Below, piece after piece: positions 55,311 through 61,704 of a stretch of DNA of 64,000 nucleotides; within the stretch, counting starts at the first letter, position 1; every line of letters starts with the position of its first letter. The translations under genes and the position numbers were made by a program. This stretch comes from the human T2T-CHM13v2.0 reference genome, Homo sapiens. The DNA is taken from assembly GCF_009914755.1 (NCBI RefSeq), contig NC_060933.1. One strand, written 5' to 3'. The notes under the pieces are model-generated. The model was given only the letters and a program-made list of their open reading frames with translations, was not told the origin of the DNA and did not search any database.

Positions 55311-56817
55311 CTGTAGGTGTTGTCGGGATTAATTCAAGTAGGCTAGAATTAGCCTGAGCTCTTTTGCTAAAGCACCTGCTGACCCCTAGTCAAAGCGTGA
55401 AACATAATGATTAATTAATGGTGGTGCATTGCACCCATGGATTTGAGGGGCATCGTGTGAGTTGTGCCAGCTTGTCATTGTTGTTCATTGGTAACAGATG
55501 ATTTGTACCTGGTGTTGCTGAGAATCCTAGAGGGCTCTGCCATTGTAGCCATGATGTTCTGAAGTGTCTGATATATGTTAAAATTAGAGGTAGTAAAATA
55601 ACATGTTTTGCAAATATCTTTTTGTTAAAATTCATATGAAATGTTGTTTTTGGGGAAGAATGGCCAAACCACCTGTTGAATAATACATAGTGCGTTTGAG
55701 CCCCTGTTCAGGAGAGTCGGGAGAAGGGTGAAGTGGAGAGAGCTCTGTGCCACTGTACTCACAGTGAGGCAAGATGAACCATTATCTCTATGTCTGTGCA
55801 TTTTGTTTTACGTATCTCTGTACATAGTGTATATAAAGGACAAACGAGTCCAGTTTACATCTAGTTTTTCTAGATGTTAAAGAGGTTGCCAGTGTATGGC
55901 AAAAGTAGATTAGTGAACTAATGTATTTTGTACATTTTGTTTTAAAATTCCTAGGAGAGATTGTCTTCTGAAAATCTGAGCATTCTTTCTCACTGGGTTG
56001 ATGGAGCTGGGAAGGGTCCTAGGCCAGAATGTCCATATTTCAAAGACTCTTTCAAATTATAACTATGGTTACATGGGTGCAGTTTATTCCAGACTACTGT
56101 GTACATAGTGGACAAATTAACTCCTTACCTGAAACATCTAGTTTACCTAGATGTTTAAAGTGCCTGATATATGTTAAATGTAGAGGTGGCAACATAGCAC
56201 TTTGTAAATATCTTTTTGCTAAAACTAATAGGAAATACTGTCTTTTGGAAATTCAATTGTGAAGCCACCATTGTGAGCAGTAGAGTACTGTCTATACTTG
56301 TTCAATGGCTTAGAGGAGGTGGGAGGGAAGAAATTGCAAAAGGTAATATGCTAGCGTGTTCATACTTGGACGTCTTCAGACACCATTTTTTCTCTATGTT
56401 TTGTGCATTTTGTTTTGCTCTGTATATAGTGTATGTTATGAAAAAATGAGCACTAATTTTGCAACATCTAGTCTCTAGGTGTTAAAGACATTGGCAATGT
56501 ATGACAAAGAACTTAGAAAATTAGCATATTTTTATGCCTTGTGTTGAAATTAATAGGAAAATTTGTCTTCTGCAAATGACTTTTGGATAGAAATTTGTTC
56601 ATCTCTAAGCATTACGTGTGTCTGTACTTGTCCACTGGATTGAAGGCAGAGAGAAGGAAGTGAGGAGAGAATGATTTGAGGCCAAAATGGTCATATTTAG
56701 AAGACACCTCACATTATAACCATTGCTATGTGTGTGCAATTTTATTTAACAGTGCTGTGTACGTGGTGGACAAGTTACATGAAATATCTAATCTTTCTAG
56801 AAATGTGGAAGTGCTTG

Positions 56818-57133
56818 ATTATTTATTTATTTATTTATTTATTTTTATTTTTGAGACAGGGTCTCACTCTGTCACCCAGACTGGAGTACACTGGTGTGAT
56901 CTCGGCTCACTGCAACCTCCGCCTCCCAGGCTCAAGTGATTCTCCTGCCTCAGCCTCTCGAGTAGCTGGAATTACAAGCATGTGCCACTACCACCCTGCT
57001 AATTTTTGTATTTTTAGTAGAGATGCGGTTTCACCATGTTGGCCAGGCTGGCCTTGAACTCATGACCTTAAATGATCCACCCGCCTCAGCCTCCCAAGTG
57101 CTGGGATTTTAGGTGTGAGCCACTCGCCTGGCA
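56818..57133 (-). mobile_element. AluS inserted in the NORAD retrocopy
   Basis: (TTTA)n tail, TSD-like tgattattt. Confidence 0.88.
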
Positions 57134-57327
57134 GGTGATTATTTAAAAGCAGAAGTAGTATAATCATATTTTTTTGTAAATAGCTTTTTAAAAATGGATG
57201 GGAAATAATATTTGGAAGTGGAGTTGTTGAACTACCTCTGTGAACAGCATACTCTCTCTAATTGTTCATTGGGTTGAGGGTGGTGAGAGGGAAGAAATTG
57301 CAAAAGTTGCTTTGCTAGTGTTTATTA

Positions 57328-57402
57328 GCACGTTGTGCACGTGTATCCTAAAACTTAAAGTATAATAATAATAAAATTTTAAAAAAAGGTTTTAAAAAAA
57401 AA
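57328..57402 (+). mobile_element. About 75-bp extreme 3' tip of an L1PA inserted in the NORAD retrocopy
   Basis: gcacgttgtgcacgtgtatcctaaaacttaaagtataataataataaaa matches the L1PA 3' terminus, followed by an A-rich tail. Confidence 0.85.
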
Positions 57403-58072
57403 GAAAATTTCAGCTTAATCCATTGCCTGTATGTTACATGCGTTTCATTTACCTTTGCTGTACTGTATATATTGTGTATATACTGAACAAATGAGTCCTA
57501 ATTTTATAATATTTAGTCGAGTCTCTAGAGAGTAAAGAGGTTGCCAATGTATGACAGAAAGAGTTAGTAAACTAGCATAAGTTGTATGCTTTGTTAAAAT
57601 TCACAGAAAGACTGTCTTCTGAAAAGGACTTTTGGGAGTGAAATAACATCAGCTCTAAGTGACTCATGTGCCTATATCCACCTGGTTGGTGGTGAAGAGG
57701 AGTTGAAAGGAATGAAGGATTCTAGGACAGAAGGTTCCTATTGAGAAGACACTTTCGGCTATAACCACTGTTACATGTGTGTAATTTATTCAACACTACT
57801 GTGTATATAACGGACAAACAAATCATATTTAAAACATCATCTAGTCTTTTTAGATGTTTAGAAGTGCACAAAGTATGTTAAAAGTAGAGGTAAATAACAC
57901 ATTTTGTAGATATCCTTTTGATGTGAAATATTGTCTTTTGGAAATTGAGCAAACCAATTCCCTGAGCCGTACACATTATTATATCTGTGTCAGTTTGGGG
58001 AGGAAGGAGGAGCAGAAAGTACAAAGGGCTTTTCACCAGTGTGTTTATGGTGAGGCACATTGACTATTATCG

Positions 58073-58493: not shown

Positions 58494-58715
58494 GGCAGGG
58501 CACGGTGGCTCACGCCTGTAATCCCAGCACTTTGGGAGGCTGAGGTGGGCAGATCACCTGTGGTCAGGAGTTCAAGACCAGCCTGACCAATATGATGAAA
58601 TCCTGTGTCTACTAAAAATACAAAAATTAGCTGGGCATGGCAGCGGGCACCTGTAATCCCAGGTACTTGGGAGGCTGAGGCAGGAGAATTGCTTGAACCC
58701 AGGAGGCAGAGGTTG
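58494..58715 (+). mobile_element. 3'-truncated Alu (no tail) in the NORAD retrocopy
   Basis: Ends at aggaggcagaggttg and joins host sequence directly. Confidence 0.85.
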
Positions 58716-59200
58716 TTAGAATCCTTTCTACACAATACATTTGGCTTATAGCTGTCCACAGGGTGGACAGAGGTTGGAACGGGAAGGGTTCTAGGCCAAA
58801 ATGTTCAGGGGAGGGGTGCTAGGCCAGAATGTTCGTATTTAGAAGACACTTTCAAATTACAGTCTATGTTATGTATATGCACCATTTATTCAATGCTACT
58901 ATGTATATAGTGGAAAACCTAAGTCCTCTTTGAAACATCTAGTCTTTCTAAATGTTTAAAAGTGCACAACATAGGTTAGAAGTAGAGGGCTAAAGTGACA
59001 CCCTTTAAGCATTTTCTTTATTACTTTTTAGGAGTGTTTGCATTTGGAAATGGAATGGTTAAACTTGATGCTTTGGACTGTTCATAGGGTGATGGTGGGT
59101 GTAGGAGGAGGAAGTATGCAAAGGGAAGGGTTCTGTGCCCAAGAGTTAGATTAGTTCACATGGTCTAACCATTGTTCTATATGCATTTTAGTTAATAGTG

Positions 59201-59502
59201 TTTTGTTTTTTATTTTTGATGGAGTTTTGCTCTTGTTGCCCAGGTTGGAGTGCAATGGTGTGATCTAGGCTCACTGCAACCTCTGCCTCCTGGGTTCAAG
59301 TGGTTCTCCTGCCTCAGCCTCCTGAGTAGCTAGGATTATAGGCACACACCACCACACCTGGCTAATTTTTTTGGTAATTTTTAGTAGATTCGGTGTTTCA
59401 CCATGTTGGCCGGGCTTGTCTTGAACTCCTGACCTCAGGTGATCCACCCACCTCAGCCTCCCAAAGTGCTGGGATTACAGGTGTGAGCCACCGCACCTGG
59501 CC
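59201..59502 (-). mobile_element. AluS in the NORAD retrocopy
   Basis: TSD aatagtg (59194-59200 / 59503-59509). Confidence 0.9.
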
Positions 59503-61704
59503 AATAGTGGGTATTAAAAGATAAACAAGTCTTAATGCTCAAAGTATGTTAAAAATAGATGTAGTAAAACAATCCGTCTACAAATGTTCTTTTGTTGTAT
59601 TTTAGGAGGCCTGTCTTCTGGGAGTGACCTTTGTTATTCCACCTCTTGGAGCTAGGCATAGTCCTATACCTAGTCACTGGGATGGTGGAAGAGGGAGAAA
59701 AGGAAGGATGAAGGAAAGAGCTATTTGCTAGTATCTCCACATCTAGAAGATGGTTTTAGATGATAACCATAGGTCTACATGAGCATTTTTAGTAAAGTGC
59801 TTGTGTGTAATTCTGGACAAAGTTTATTATTTTGCACTATCTAAGCTTTATGAATGTCCTGGGGTGATAATGTGTGATAAAAAGTAGAACTAGTGAATTA
59901 GCCAATTTGTAAATTTTTTCTTGTTATAATTTATAGAAAAGATGCAACTTGGACATGGAACTGTTAAACCATCTCTGAGCTTTGTATGCCAGGACTTGTT
60001 CATTAGGTTGGCAGCAGAGCAGCAAAAGGAAGTATAAAGAGAGAGATGTATGCAGATGTGTCGATATTTACATTTTGATGATAGCCATTGTTGTATGTGC
60101 ATCTCTTTTAGCTGTACTATAGGAATACATTAGGTATTTCAATGAAAACATACCTTGCTAATATTTGAATAGTATAGATCTGCTAATGGATTCTCTTAGA
60201 AACATTATACTTAGTGTATTCTATTGCTGTATATTTCATTTTAAAGTGAGCACTAAAGGAATGCGGTATTTTAATAAAAACTCTGCCAACGCTTTTACTT
60301 AGAGGCGTGTTGCCAATTTTTGTCTTTTATGAAAATTTGGCCCAAGAAAGGCAGGATTACATTGTTTTTCCAACAGATTGAGTGGGTGTAGTGTATTCTT
60401 GATGATCAAAATACTCATATAGCTTTGAGATTTTGAATTGGTAAATACTCAAGATGTGTGAAAAAGCATGATACATACTATATGATCTCAGTCCCATAAA
60501 ATTGACTATTGTATCTACACCCACACAGGACCTAGAAGGACATGTTAAACTGTAAACTGCTTGTGATTGTGGATGACCTTTTTCGTTGCTTCTTGTGTTT
60601 TTCAGTTTCCTATAATGCACATAGTAACTTAAAAAAATAAAGATTATTTTTGAAACCTAAAAAAAAGAGGTTACAGAATTGAATACTCCCTGAGATAAGG
60701 TAAAATCATCTTATGCTAACGGTTGCAAGATAATGGTATAAGTAAGCTTTCGTCGTACATATCAATGAACTTTAAGATTTGGAAGACAAAATTCAGTTTA
60801 TGTATTCAATTAAATGTGCTCAGATTGTATTGTGCTAGATAGGCACATTATTCTAACATAATATGAATGAATCAATAAAATCCTTATAATACTGATGAAA
60901 TGTGGTCATTTACATGTAAATCTTATATGGCTATTTCCATATGGATATTAATAATATGTAGACCATTTGTTACTAATAGATATTTAAATTCCTTCAAATA
61001 CTTGTTGATATAAGTTTATGCCACAGATTTATCTTTGGCATGAAAAGAAAGAATGGATAAGAGAGACGACTTGTAGAAATATCTTGGAGGTTGTGTAACA
61101 TCTCGTTTCTGCCCAGGCTCTGTGTGTATTCACAGTATTCTGTGGAGAGGAAGCAAGTATAAGTCAAATTCCTGGTACCTTGAATAACACTCAAATCTGT
61201 GTCTCTGTTTCATCATCCTGCAGTGAGCTAGATGGATTCCCCTATCCCTTCTCATCCTTCCACCCAATACTCACCTGTCCACTCTGACTTTTATTTTGAC
61301 TTTCGAGGCTGGGGATGTTAAGGGTTGGTGGAGGCAGTGCGGTACTGCTGCTCAGCAAGAAGCTTGCGTGGCCTTGCCAGGTTCCCAAATCACAAAACCA
61401 CACACTGTTCTCATTAGTGTGAAGTGCAAGATTCTCTCTTCTATGCTAATTTGCAAAGAAATTAAGATGGTACCTTTCAGTAGAAAAATTTCCCTCAGTG
61501 CCCTAGTTCAGAGGAGCGATGAAATGTAACACGCAGAGAGTCAGATGTTTAGGTACTCCTCAAGTTTCCTGTAAAAGAGCAGAACTGCAGGCTGCTGGAA
61601 AGACTGAGGGTGGAGCTGGCGCTGCAGCAACTGAGGGATGTCTTTGCAAATGTGCTCATGTATGTTTTTATGTGAAAATAATCTTAAAATTTCTCAATTC
61701 AGGC

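What the first reader, a model, noticed from the sequence alone, without database searches (positions are those of the whole stretch)
55500..60666. Hidden NORAD lncRNA retrocopy retaining a dense Pumilio-binding array
Seen: non-coding DNA made of diverged units of about 300 bp. It contains TGTANATA motifs on the + strand at 55819, 55828, 56100, 56203, 56421, 57175, 57464, 57475, 57802, 57905, 58325 and 58902 (12 found by eye, two of them tandem pairs). It ends in AATAAA plus an A-tail. Established: UGUANAUA is the PUM1/PUM2 response element, NORAD is a multivalent Pumilio decoy built from such repeat units, and NORAD retrocopies (e.g. HCG11) are known to exist. The existence of this copy may therefore not be new. 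Inference: the GC-rich NORAD 5' end is missing, but enough PREs survive that a + strand transcript could act as a second PUM sponge or condensate scaffold.
Basis: partly seen in the sequence, partly recalled or inferred. Interest (0 to 1): 0.85.

Follow-up and report, generated by a model that had tools for sequence, protein, structure and literature searches.

The report
Old truncated NORAD processed pseudogene
This stretch of chromosome 9 is an old, promoter-less retrocopy of the NORAD long non-coding RNA that still carries 12 Pumilio-binding motifs, but they are kept about as well as neutral decay predicts, so it is most likely an ordinary pseudogene and not a second Pumilio sponge.

Summary
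All 12 TGTANATA motifs sit on the + strand at the stated positions: 12 against 0.74 expected in the region, with a maximum of 5 in 1000 shuffles. The identity is also correct. Window 55553-60658 is colinear with NORAD nt 1189-5336 of 5343, with 11.75% substitutions. It ends at NORAD's AATAAA and cleavage site, followed by an 8-A tail. Four Alu-like repeats and one 73-bp insert interrupt it.

The functional inference is not supported. PREs are kept at 9 of 13 against a control rate of 0.43 (P=0.051). Against inferred ancestral sites the count is 12 of 16, versus 0.51-0.54 (P=0.04-0.07). Neither value is corrected for the 19 copies tested. Pooled over all 19 copies, 99 PREs are kept versus 98.6 expected.

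The parental promoter and the first 1188 nt are missing. The only sign of + strand RNA is a predicted lncRNA, LOC124906827, whose Alu-derived acceptor captures 0.94 kb holding 5 PREs. Many NORAD pseudogenes are already reported (PMC4947167).

Side result: three of the copy's PREs are ancestral NORAD sites that the human parent has since lost or shifted.

The parts
55553..60658 (+). NORAD processed pseudogene body, corresponding to NORAD nt 1189-5336 of 5343. It is 5'-truncated and interrupted by later insertions.
   Evidence: eight colinear blastn blocks; best non-self genome match is chr20 NORAD; 3853 NORAD positions covered, 11.75% substitutions. K80 distance 0.129.
60636..60641 (+). AATAAA polyadenylation signal inherited from NORAD
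   Evidence: it aligns with NORAD's AATAAA, 17 nt before the last aligned base.
60659..60666 (+). Remnant of the poly(A) tail (8 A), starting directly after the last NORAD-aligned base
   Evidence: Homology to the chr20 locus does not continue past the RNA end.
55819..55826 (+). PRE TGTACATA, equivalent to NORAD PRE at nt 1442 (N position changed)
55828..55835 (+). PRE TGTATATA, equivalent to NORAD PRE at nt 1451 (N position changed)
56100..56107 (+). PRE TGTACATA at NORAD nt 1721. Human NORAD now reads TATACATA there. This is an ancestral site kept by the copy.
   Evidence: the same TGTA[C/T]ATA is found in 7 of the other 18 copies.
56203..56210 (+). PRE TGTAAATA, equivalent to NORAD nt 1825
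56421..56428 (+). PRE TGTATATA, equivalent to NORAD nt 2039. Its former tandem partner (nt 2048) is lost here (TGTATGTT at 56430).
57175..57182 (+). PRE TGTAAATA, equivalent to NORAD nt 2466. Lies inside LOC124906827 exon 2.
57464..57471 (+). PRE TGTATATA, equivalent to NORAD nt 2639. Lies inside exon 2.
57475..57482 (+). PRE TGTATATA at NORAD nt 2650, in the ancestral register. The parent's site has since shifted to nt 2648. Lies inside exon 2.
   Evidence: TTGTGTATATAC is shared by 7 of the 12 copies covering the site (window included).
57802..57809 (+). PRE TGTATATA, equivalent to NORAD nt 2972. Lies inside exon 2.
57905..57912 (+). PRE TGTAGATA at NORAD nt 3078. Human NORAD now reads TGTAGCTA there. 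This is an ancestral site kept by the copy. Lies inside exon 2.
   Evidence: TGTAGATA is also present in chr6:28.48M, chr6:29.04M and chrX:77.69M.
58325..58332 (+). PRE TGTAGATA, equivalent to NORAD nt 3275 (N position changed). Its tandem partner at nt 3284 is lost (CGTACATA at 58334).
58902..58909 (+). PRE TGTATATA, equivalent to NORAD nt 3593
55609..55616 (+). Decayed PRE (TGCAAATA), equivalent to NORAD nt 1241
59908..59915 (+). Decayed PRE (TGTAAATT), equivalent to NORAD nt 4599
56812..57127 (-). Alu-like SINE inserted after retroposition, antisense to the copy. It supplies the splice acceptor of LOC124906827 exon 2 (AG at 56858-56859).
   Evidence: masked repeat; 82% match to NORAD's internal repeat on the minus strand; acceptor context. 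The name Alu is from recall.
57329..57401 (+). 73-bp A-rich insertion absent from NORAD. By recall it looks like the 3' end of an L1 plus its tail.
   Evidence: gap between NORAD nt 2578 and 2577. The family name was not tested.
58066..58303 (-). Alu-like SINE, antisense, lying between NORAD nt 3243 and 3247
58491..58719 (+). Alu-like SINE, sense orientation, with its 3' part and A-tail missing. It sits at an insertion hotspot (NORAD nt 3426/3434).
59192..59508 (-). Alu-like SINE, antisense, lying between NORAD nt 4214 and 4207
58958..58975 (+). Intact empty site where the parent gene now carries its own internal Alu (NORAD nt 3662-3946)
   Evidence: 0 of 285 Alu columns covered, with both flanks fully covered.
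56860..58090 (+). Exon 2 of the predicted lncRNA LOC124906827 (XR_007080343.1, Gnomon). It consists of antisense Alu plus NORAD-derived 57136-58071, and contains 5 PREs.
   Evidence: annotation; canonical AG acceptor. The annotated end lies in a T-run without a poly(A) signal.
48383..48550 (+). Exon 1 of LOC124906827. This is the only candidate promoter-proximal exon that could drive + strand RNA through the copy.
   Evidence: donor AG|GTAAAA; 49% GC, 0 CpG.

Best explanation
Window 55553-60666 is a processed pseudogene of the lncRNA NORAD. A polyadenylated NORAD transcript was reverse-transcribed and inserted at 9p13.1, presumably by the L1 machinery (inference). Reverse transcription stopped early, so the copy lacks NORAD nt 1-1188 and the parental promoter. 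The insertion is tens of millions of years old. It predates the Alu that now sits inside NORAD, and it branches from the NORAD lineage earlier than HCG11. Since then it has decayed roughly neutrally and has been hit by four Alu-like SINEs and one short A-tailed fragment. It still has 12 PREs for two reasons: the parent was very PRE-dense, and AT-rich CpG-free 8-mers decay slowly. About half of matched control 8-mers also survive. One antisense Alu created a splice acceptor, through which a predicted upstream lncRNA (LOC124906827) captures about 0.94 kb of the copy with 5 PREs. Any PRE-bearing RNA can in principle bind PUM1/2. Without NORAD-like abundance this would be a negligible share of cellular PREs, so the locus most likely has no sponge function.
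For: Identity. The best non-self genome match is NORAD, at 86% over query positions 54-1301. Eight colinear blocks cover NORAD nt 1189-5336. The 5' boundary is sharp at 55553. The copy ends at the parental AATAAA and cleavage site, followed by 8 A. There is no homology to the chr20 flanks apart from unrelated Alus.

Age and origin. Substitutions are 11.75% and K80 is 0.129. Parsimony assigns 7.9-8.7% to the copy lineage. The terminal branch is 0.095 in a comb-like tree, branching before HCG11. The site of NORAD's internal Alu is empty in this copy.

Neutrality. 9 of 13 parental PREs are kept, versus 0.43 for 613 AT-matched non-CpG control 8-mers (P=0.051). This is the lowest P of the 19 copies, about what chance gives for the minimum of 19 tests. 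Pooled, 99 are kept versus 98.6 expected. The polarised test gives 12 of 16 versus 0.51-0.54 (P=0.044-0.070), and pooled 129-131 kept versus 134.3-136.1 expected. The exonised segment is no better conserved (84.7%) than the intronic 5' segment (85.8%).

Context. Tichon 2016 (PMC4947167, passages) reports that the close NORAD pseudogenes do not appear to be expressed, except HCG11 at about 20-fold lower than NORAD. Bohn 2018 (PMC5758885, passages) reports that NORAD and HCG11 each hold less than 1% of the PREs in HEK293.
Against: PRE retention in this copy is the highest relative to expectation of all 19 copies examined (nominal P of 0.04-0.07), so weak constraint cannot be excluded. RefSeq models a spliced + strand lncRNA with canonical GT-AG sites that contains 5 PREs, so part of the copy is probably transcribed in the sense direction in some tissue. 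No target-site duplication could be identified: the best candidate is 8 of 9 nt at chance level and 54 nt away from the junction. Expression level, 3' end usage, CLIP data and primate orthologs could not be examined with these tools.
Confidence: 0.86

Rival explanations
1. Exapted Pumilio decoy. The copy, transcribed from the LOC124906827 promoter (possibly reading on to the inherited poly(A) site at 60636-60658), acts as a tissue-restricted multivalent PUM1/2 binder alongside NORAD and HCG11.
For: There are 12 sense-strand PREs against 0.74 expected, and 5 of them lie inside an annotated spliced + strand exon. PRE retention is nominally above control (P=0.04-0.07). Reviews state that fewer PREs reduce but do not abolish condensate formation (PMC9399341, passages, citing Elguindy and Mendell 2021, which I could not read).
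Against: Pooled retention across copies is neutral. The parental promoter and 5' 1188 nt are missing. The lncRNA is a Gnomon prediction whose exon ends in a T-run, and 7 of the 12 PREs lie outside it. No paper mentions the lncRNA. Even NORAD and HCG11 each hold less than 1% of cellular PREs in HEK293 (PMC5758885).
Confidence: 0.07
2. Secondary retrocopy. The copy derives not from NORAD itself but from an expressed older retrocopy or an Alu-bearing NORAD allele, shared with the chr6:28.48M copy.
For: The window copy and chr6:28.48M carry a sense-oriented Alu whose 5' junction is at the same nucleotide after NORAD nt 3426.
Against: The two share only 9 exclusively derived substitutions in 3221 sites, against 180 and 165 private ones. 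That is no more than other pairs of old copies. In the tree they are not sisters, and chr6:29.04M branches between them. The same TTAAAA-type site carries a different insertion in chr6:29.04M, and two Alus lie 22 nt away in chr16:64.53M, which points to an insertion hotspot. Only 1 exclusive derived state is shared with HCG11.
Confidence: 0.05
3. DNA-level (segmental) duplication of the NORAD locus rather than retroposition.
For: None specific. 9p13.1 is a duplication-rich pericentromeric region (recalled).
Against: Homology stops exactly at the RNA cleavage site and is followed by an A-run. The chr20 flanks match only unrelated Alus. The 1.3-kb probe has a single 100% match in the genome.
Confidence: 0.01

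Closest known systems
NORAD (LINC00657), chr20q11.23, the parent gene
   Same: Colinear sequence over nt 1189-5336. It has the same repeat units of about 300 nt, and the same poly(A) signal. There are 12 sense PREs, against 13 in the same span of the parent.
   Different: Substitutions are 11.75%, plus indels. The copy lacks nt 1-1188 (the GC-rich 5' part, the promoter and 2 PREs). It lacks the parent's internal Alu and carries four other Alu-like insertions. There is no evidence of abundance or PUM binding.
HCG11 (chr6:26.39M), the expressed NORAD retrocopy annotated as a lncRNA
   Same: Both are retrocopies of NORAD that retain many sense PREs. I counted 16 in HCG11, which matches the 16 given in PMC7976429.
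   Different: HCG11 is full-length (NORAD nt 1-5343), younger (6.0-6.5% substitutions, terminal branch 0.040) and contains NORAD's internal Alu. It is reported as expressed about 20-fold below NORAD and as PUM-bound (PMC4947167; PMC5758885). The chr9 copy is truncated and older, and no expression has been reported for it.
Other old NORAD processed pseudogenes (e.g. chr6:29.04M, chr6:28.48M, chrX:77.69M, chr16:64.53M)
   Same: They have the same origin and comparable divergence (13-17%), are riddled with SINE/LINE insertions, and retain 7-10 sense PREs each. Their PRE decay matches control 8-mers.
   Different: The chr9 copy keeps the most PREs among the copies over 10% diverged (12), and it overlaps a RefSeq lncRNA model in the sense direction.

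Membership tests
Processed pseudogene (retrocopy) of NORAD | Colinear homology to the mature parental RNA | tested here: met
   Eight colinear blocks cover NORAD nt 1189-5336. NORAD is the best non-self hit in the genome.
Processed pseudogene (retrocopy) of NORAD | Homology ends at the parental poly(A) site and is followed by an A-tail, with no homology to the parental flanks | tested here: met
   AATAAA lies at 60636-60641, the last aligned base is 60658, and 8 A follow at 60659-60666. The chr20 flanks match only Alus elsewhere.
Processed pseudogene (retrocopy) of NORAD | Target-site duplications flanking the insert | tested here: inconclusive
   The flanks share no exact word of 7 nt or more. 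The best match is 8 of 9 nt (55490 versus 60669), at chance level and 54 nt from the 5' junction.
Processed pseudogene (retrocopy) of NORAD | Absence of the parent's introns | not testable with these tools
   NORAD is a single-exon gene (PMC7976429 passage), so this criterion gives no information.
Processed pseudogene (retrocopy) of NORAD | 5' truncation or lack of the parental promoter (common but not obligatory) | tested here: met
   The copy starts at NORAD nt 1189. Nothing upstream of 55553 matches NORAD.
NORAD-type functional Pumilio decoy lncRNA | Many PREs (UGUANAUA) on the transcribed strand, far above chance | tested here: met
   12 on the + strand against 0.74 expected, maximum 5 in 1000 shuffles, and 2 on the - strand.
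NORAD-type functional Pumilio decoy lncRNA | Purifying selection on the PREs | tested here: inconclusive
   9 of 13 kept versus 0.43 (P=0.051), and 12 of 16 versus 0.51-0.54 (P=0.044-0.070). Neither is significant after correction for 19 copies, and the pooled result is neutral. Primate orthologs were not available.
NORAD-type functional Pumilio decoy lncRNA | Own promoter and an abundant, stable, cytoplasmic transcript | not testable with these tools
   The parental 5' end is absent. The only evidence is a Gnomon model whose exon 2 covers 5 of the 12 PREs. No expression data were accessible, and no paper mentions the model.
NORAD-type functional Pumilio decoy lncRNA | Direct PUM1/PUM2 binding (CLIP) and an effect on PUM targets | not testable with these tools
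NORAD repeat-unit architecture | Tandem diverged units of about 300 nt | tested here: met
   Self-hits fall at offsets near multiples of 300, from 277 to 2798 (13 hits). Tichon 2016 describes 12 units of about 300 nt.
Curated RNA family (Rfam) | Match at the gathering score to any Rfam model | tested here: not met
   0 matches in 54000-62000 on both strands.

The most novel reading that the evidence does not exclude
Through Alu-mediated exonisation into LOC124906827, the chr9 copy supplies a tissue-restricted sense RNA with 5 to 12 PREs. Three of these are ancestral sites that human NORAD itself has lost or shifted. Weak selection has kept those PREs (12 of 16 ancestral sites kept, the best of the 19 copies), making the locus a minor, lineage-specific auxiliary Pumilio binder.
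Probability: 0.05. Interest if true: 0.5.

Novelty: new member of a known kind. Interest (0 to 1): 0.2.

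Why it matters
In itself it matters little. NORAD is known to have spawned many pseudogenes, and this one behaves like the others.

There are two practical points. First, the copy is unannotated as a pseudogene and is not repeat-masked, so at about 85% identity it can attract mis-mapped NORAD, CLIP or probe signal. 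It also lends NORAD-like sequence with 5 PREs to a predicted lncRNA.

Second, the set of retrocopies works as a dated fossil record of NORAD. It shows that the human parent has lost or shifted PREs at nt 1721, 2048, 2648/2650 and 3078, and gained its internal Alu, after the older copies were made. That bears on how the PRE array of NORAD itself has evolved.

Tried and rejected
1. The Rfam gathering scan of 54000-62000 gave 0 hits. No curated NORAD-unit family matched, so it added nothing.

2. TSD search. The 5' flank (55470-55565) and 3' flank (60650-60730) share no exact word of 7 nt or more. The best local match is 8 of 9 nt, at about the level expected by chance. I rejected it as a TSD.

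3. I tested whether the 54 nt upstream of 55553 are an inverted or displaced NORAD piece (twin priming). blastn-short gave only 9-13-nt chance matches, with E from 0.26 to 4.1. Rejected.

4. DNA duplication of the chr20 locus is rejected.

5. Descent from HCG11 is rejected: 1 exclusively shared derived state and the tree position.

6. A shared Alu-bearing source with chr6:28.48M was considered because of the identical Alu 5' junction. It is disfavoured but not settled.

7. A coding reading is rejected: the largest ORF is 123 aa, on the - strand across an Alu.

8. Literature. Searching for LOC124906827 returned 0 papers. Searching NORAD + retrocop + lncRNA returned 1 paper, which I saw in the listing only and did not open. 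Elguindy and Mendell 2021 (PMC8266761) is not held, so what I say about PRE valency comes from a review passage (PMC9399341).

9. Supplements of the papers were not opened. Supplementary tables of PMC5758885 and PMC4947167 may list PRE counts or pseudogenes that bear on whether this copy was already noticed.

10. Rows and limits. The comparison used the window copy plus 18 other loci, chosen from the 93 matches (40 of 53 candidates scored). Shorter or weaker copies were left out, so 19 is a lower bound. In several copies an unrelated Alu aligned to NORAD's internal Alu, so NORAD nt 3662-3946 were excluded from all rates and tests. CpG sites were excluded from the polarisation. Control 8-mers overlap one another and serve only to estimate a fraction. 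Neutral-rate figures used for dating are recalled, not computed.

Full report
OBSERVATION. The region 55500-60666 has no other + strand site and 2 on the - strand. Dinucleotide-preserving shuffles of the region give a mean of 0.74 (sd 0.84, maximum 5 in 1000), against 12 observed. The two tandem pairs (55819/55828 and 57464/57475), the AATAAA at 60636-60641 and the 8-A run at 60659-60666 are all there. Self-comparison of the non-repeat parts gives 13 off-diagonal hits at offsets near multiples of 300 bp, so the description of diverged units of about 300 bp holds. No ORF exceeds 123 aa.

IDENTITY. A 1.3-kb probe from the region finds itself once at 100%. Its next-best hit is the NORAD gene on chr20, at 86%. 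Against the 5343-nt NORAD transcript taken from this assembly, the window forms eight colinear blocks:
- 55553-56825 with nt 1189-2442
- 57136-57237 with nt 2432-2527
- 57278-57328 with nt 2528-2578
- 57402-58071 with nt 2577-3243
- 58301-58485 with nt 3247-3426
- 58713-58970 with nt 3434-3661
- 58958-59201 with nt 3947-4214
- 59503-60658 with nt 4207-5336

Substitution divergence is 11.75% over 3769 aligned bases, and K80 is 0.129. The 5' boundary is sharp: nothing upstream of 55553 matches NORAD on either strand. The missing nt 1-1188 include the 70.7%-GC first 600 nt. At the 3' end the copy stops 7 nt before the RefSeq end of NORAD and continues with A's. The chr20 flanks have no counterpart here apart from unrelated Alus. 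This is the signature of retroposition of a polyadenylated RNA, not of DNA duplication. A target-site duplication could not be identified. The gaps between blocks are four soft-masked, Alu-sized repeats (56812-57127, 58066-58303, 58491-58719, 59192-59508) and a 73-bp A-rich insert (57329-57401). All are absent from NORAD and so were inserted later. The names Alu and L1 come from my recognition of the sequences, since the tools give no family names. RefSeq annotates no pseudogene here, and Rfam has no matching family.

PLACE AMONG NORAD COPIES. The genome holds many NORAD-derived loci: 93 matches, which is a lower bound. I compared the window copy with 18 others, whose substitution divergence from NORAD runs from 1.6% to 16.8%. 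A maximum-likelihood tree of NORAD-anchored projections is comb-like, as expected if each copy left the parental lineage independently. The window copy (terminal branch 0.095) branches after chr6:28.48M and chr6:29.04M and well before HCG11 (0.040), chrX:79.43M, chr12:29.26M and chr5:25.29M. NORAD's internal Alu (nt 3662-3946, flanked by a duplication of about 12 nt) is present in HCG11, chr12:29.26M and chrX:79.43M. It is absent, with both flanks intact, from the window copy and from chrX:77.69M. The copy is therefore older than that Alu. With recalled neutral rates of about 1-2.2 x 10^-9 per site per year, a copy-lineage divergence of 8-9.5% suggests an age of several tens of millions of years. 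This is an inference, and orthologs are needed to confirm it.

ARE THE PREs KEPT BY SELECTION? NORAD in this assembly has 15 canonical PREs, 13 of them in the span the copy covers.
- In register, 9 of the 13 are intact in the copy. A tenth (nt 2648) appears 2 nt away.
- The matched control is AT-matched 8-mers of NORAD without CpG and outside the PREs (613 of them covered by this copy). Of these, 43% are intact, which gives a binomial P of 0.051.
- That is the lowest P among the 19 copies, which is what one expects for the minimum of 19 tests. The locus was also chosen because it has many PREs.
- Summed over all copies, 99 PREs are kept against 98.6 expected.

The two extra PREs (56100 and 57905) and the shifted one (57475) turned out to be ancestral. 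The same motif is found at those positions in several independent older copies, whereas NORAD and its youngest copies carry a derived base. A fourth ancestral site, at nt 2048, was lost by NORAD only after the chr12 copy was made, and was lost independently in the window copy.

I then polarised every difference using the other copies, excluding CpG sites. This assigns 7.9-8.7% substitutions to the copy lineage and 3.1-3.9% to the parental lineage. The count becomes 12 of 16 ancestral PREs kept, against 0.51-0.54 for controls (P=0.044-0.070). Pooled, 129-131 are kept against 134.3-136.1 expected. The segment included in the lncRNA exon is no better conserved (84.7% identity) than the intronic 5' segment (85.8%). 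There is therefore no significant evidence that the PREs decay more slowly than neutral. The nominal excess is noted and cannot be resolved without orthologs.

TRANSCRIPTION. The copy has no parental promoter. RefSeq's predicted lncRNA LOC124906827 (XR_007080343.1, Gnomon) has exon 1 at 48383-48550 and exon 2 at 56860-58090. The donor (AG|GTAAAA) and the acceptor (pyrimidine run, then GAGACAG|G) are canonical. The acceptor lies inside the first antisense Alu, a familiar route of Alu exonisation (recalled). Exon 2 contains NORAD-derived 57136-58071 with 5 PREs (57175, 57464, 57475, 57802, 57905). Five PREs are intronic and two lie downstream. The annotated 3' end falls in a T-run with no poly(A) signal, so the model is probably incomplete. 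I could not see the reads behind it. No paper mentions this gene.

COMPARISON WITH WHAT IS KNOWN.
- Tichon et al. 2016 (PMC4947167, passages) state that NORAD's germline expression probably explains the large number of NORAD pseudogenes in mammals. They also report that four human pseudogenes share over 90% identity with NORAD over more than 4 kb, and that these do not appear to be expressed, except HCG11 at about 20-fold lower than NORAD. The chr9 copy is more diverged and so is not one of those four.
- Kopp et al. [quoted passage not shown]
- PMC7976429 (passages) gives 15 and 16 canonical PREs for NORAD and HCG11. My counts agree.
- Bohn et al. [quoted passage not shown]
- A review (PMC9399341, passages) reports, citing Elguindy and Mendell 2021, that fewer PREs reduce condensate formation. 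I could not read the primary paper.

On this background, an RNA with 5-12 PREs could bind PUM proteins in principle, but it would matter only at an abundance for which there is no evidence.

VERDICT. The proposal that it is a second Pumilio sponge is not supported: the PREs decay at a rate compatible with neutrality, the promoter is missing, and only a predicted lncRNA overlaps part of the copy. It is a new, unannotated member of a known kind, of low interest. The by-products are modest:
- a fossil record of PRE loss and Alu gain in NORAD itself
- an insertion hotspot at NORAD nt 3415-3446, hit independently in four copies
- an example of Alu-mediated capture of a retrocopy into a lncRNA model

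Noticed in passing
window 56100-56107, 57475-57482, 57905-57912; NORAD nt 1721, 2048, 2648/2650, 3078 (L011): The retrocopies act as a fossil record of the parent. Human NORAD has lost PREs at nt 1721 (now TATACATA), nt 2048 (now TATATATA) and nt 3078 (now TGTAGCTA), and has shifted one from nt 2650 to nt 2648. The ancestral PRE forms survive in several independent older copies, including this one. The loss at nt 2048 falls between the chr12:29.26M and chr5:25.29M copies.
   Followed up: partly
window 58470-58720; L028 about 3900-4220; L029 about 1550-2170; L017 about 3590-3715: There is an insertion hotspot at NORAD nt 3415-3446 (TTCTTAAAAACA...). The window copy has a sense Alu, and chr6:28.48M has a sense Alu with its 5' junction at the same nucleotide. 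Two tandem Alus lie 22 nt further along in chr16:64.53M. In chr6:29.04M there is what looks (by recall) like an L1 5' end at the same site. Independent hits are favoured over common descent, but this is not proven.
   Followed up: partly
NORAD nt 3662-3946 (L011); window 58958-58975: NORAD's own internal Alu is present in the three younger full-length copies (HCG11, chr12:29.26M, chrX:79.43M). It is absent, with an intact empty site, from the window copy and from chrX:77.69M. The Alu therefore entered NORAD between those retroposition events.
   Followed up: partly
window 56830-56875 and 58066-58110: Exon 2 of LOC124906827 starts at an AG acceptor inside an antisense Alu. Its annotated end lies in the T-run of the next antisense Alu, with no poly(A) signal. 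The model looks like Alu exonisation with an incomplete 3' end.
   Followed up: partly
window 57329-57401: This is a 73-bp insert inside the retrocopy with an A-rich tail. By recall it resembles the extreme 3' end of an L1, which would make it a heavily 5'-truncated LINE insertion. It also holds an AATAAA followed by A-runs that could cause internal priming.
   Followed up: no
G000 chr6:26.39M (HCG11), chr6:28.48M, chr6:29.04M: Three separate NORAD-derived copies of different ages lie within 2.7 Mb on chr6p22. I did not test whether this is more than chance.
   Followed up: no
window 31822-31914 and 16218-17571: There are other small clusters of TGTANATA outside the retrocopy: three within 93 bp at 31822 (-), 31846 (+) and 31907 (+), and eight on mixed strands at 16218-17571. 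Outside 55500-60666 the window still has 22 matches, whereas about 8 are expected for the whole window. This probably reflects TA-rich low-complexity DNA.
   Followed up: no
NORAD lineage versus copy lineages (tree; counts): Since the birth of the window copy, the parental NORAD lineage itself has accumulated about 3-4% substitutions by parsimony, against about 8-9% in the copy. By this crude measure, primate NORAD has evolved at roughly 0.4 times the pseudogene rate overall.
   Followed up: no
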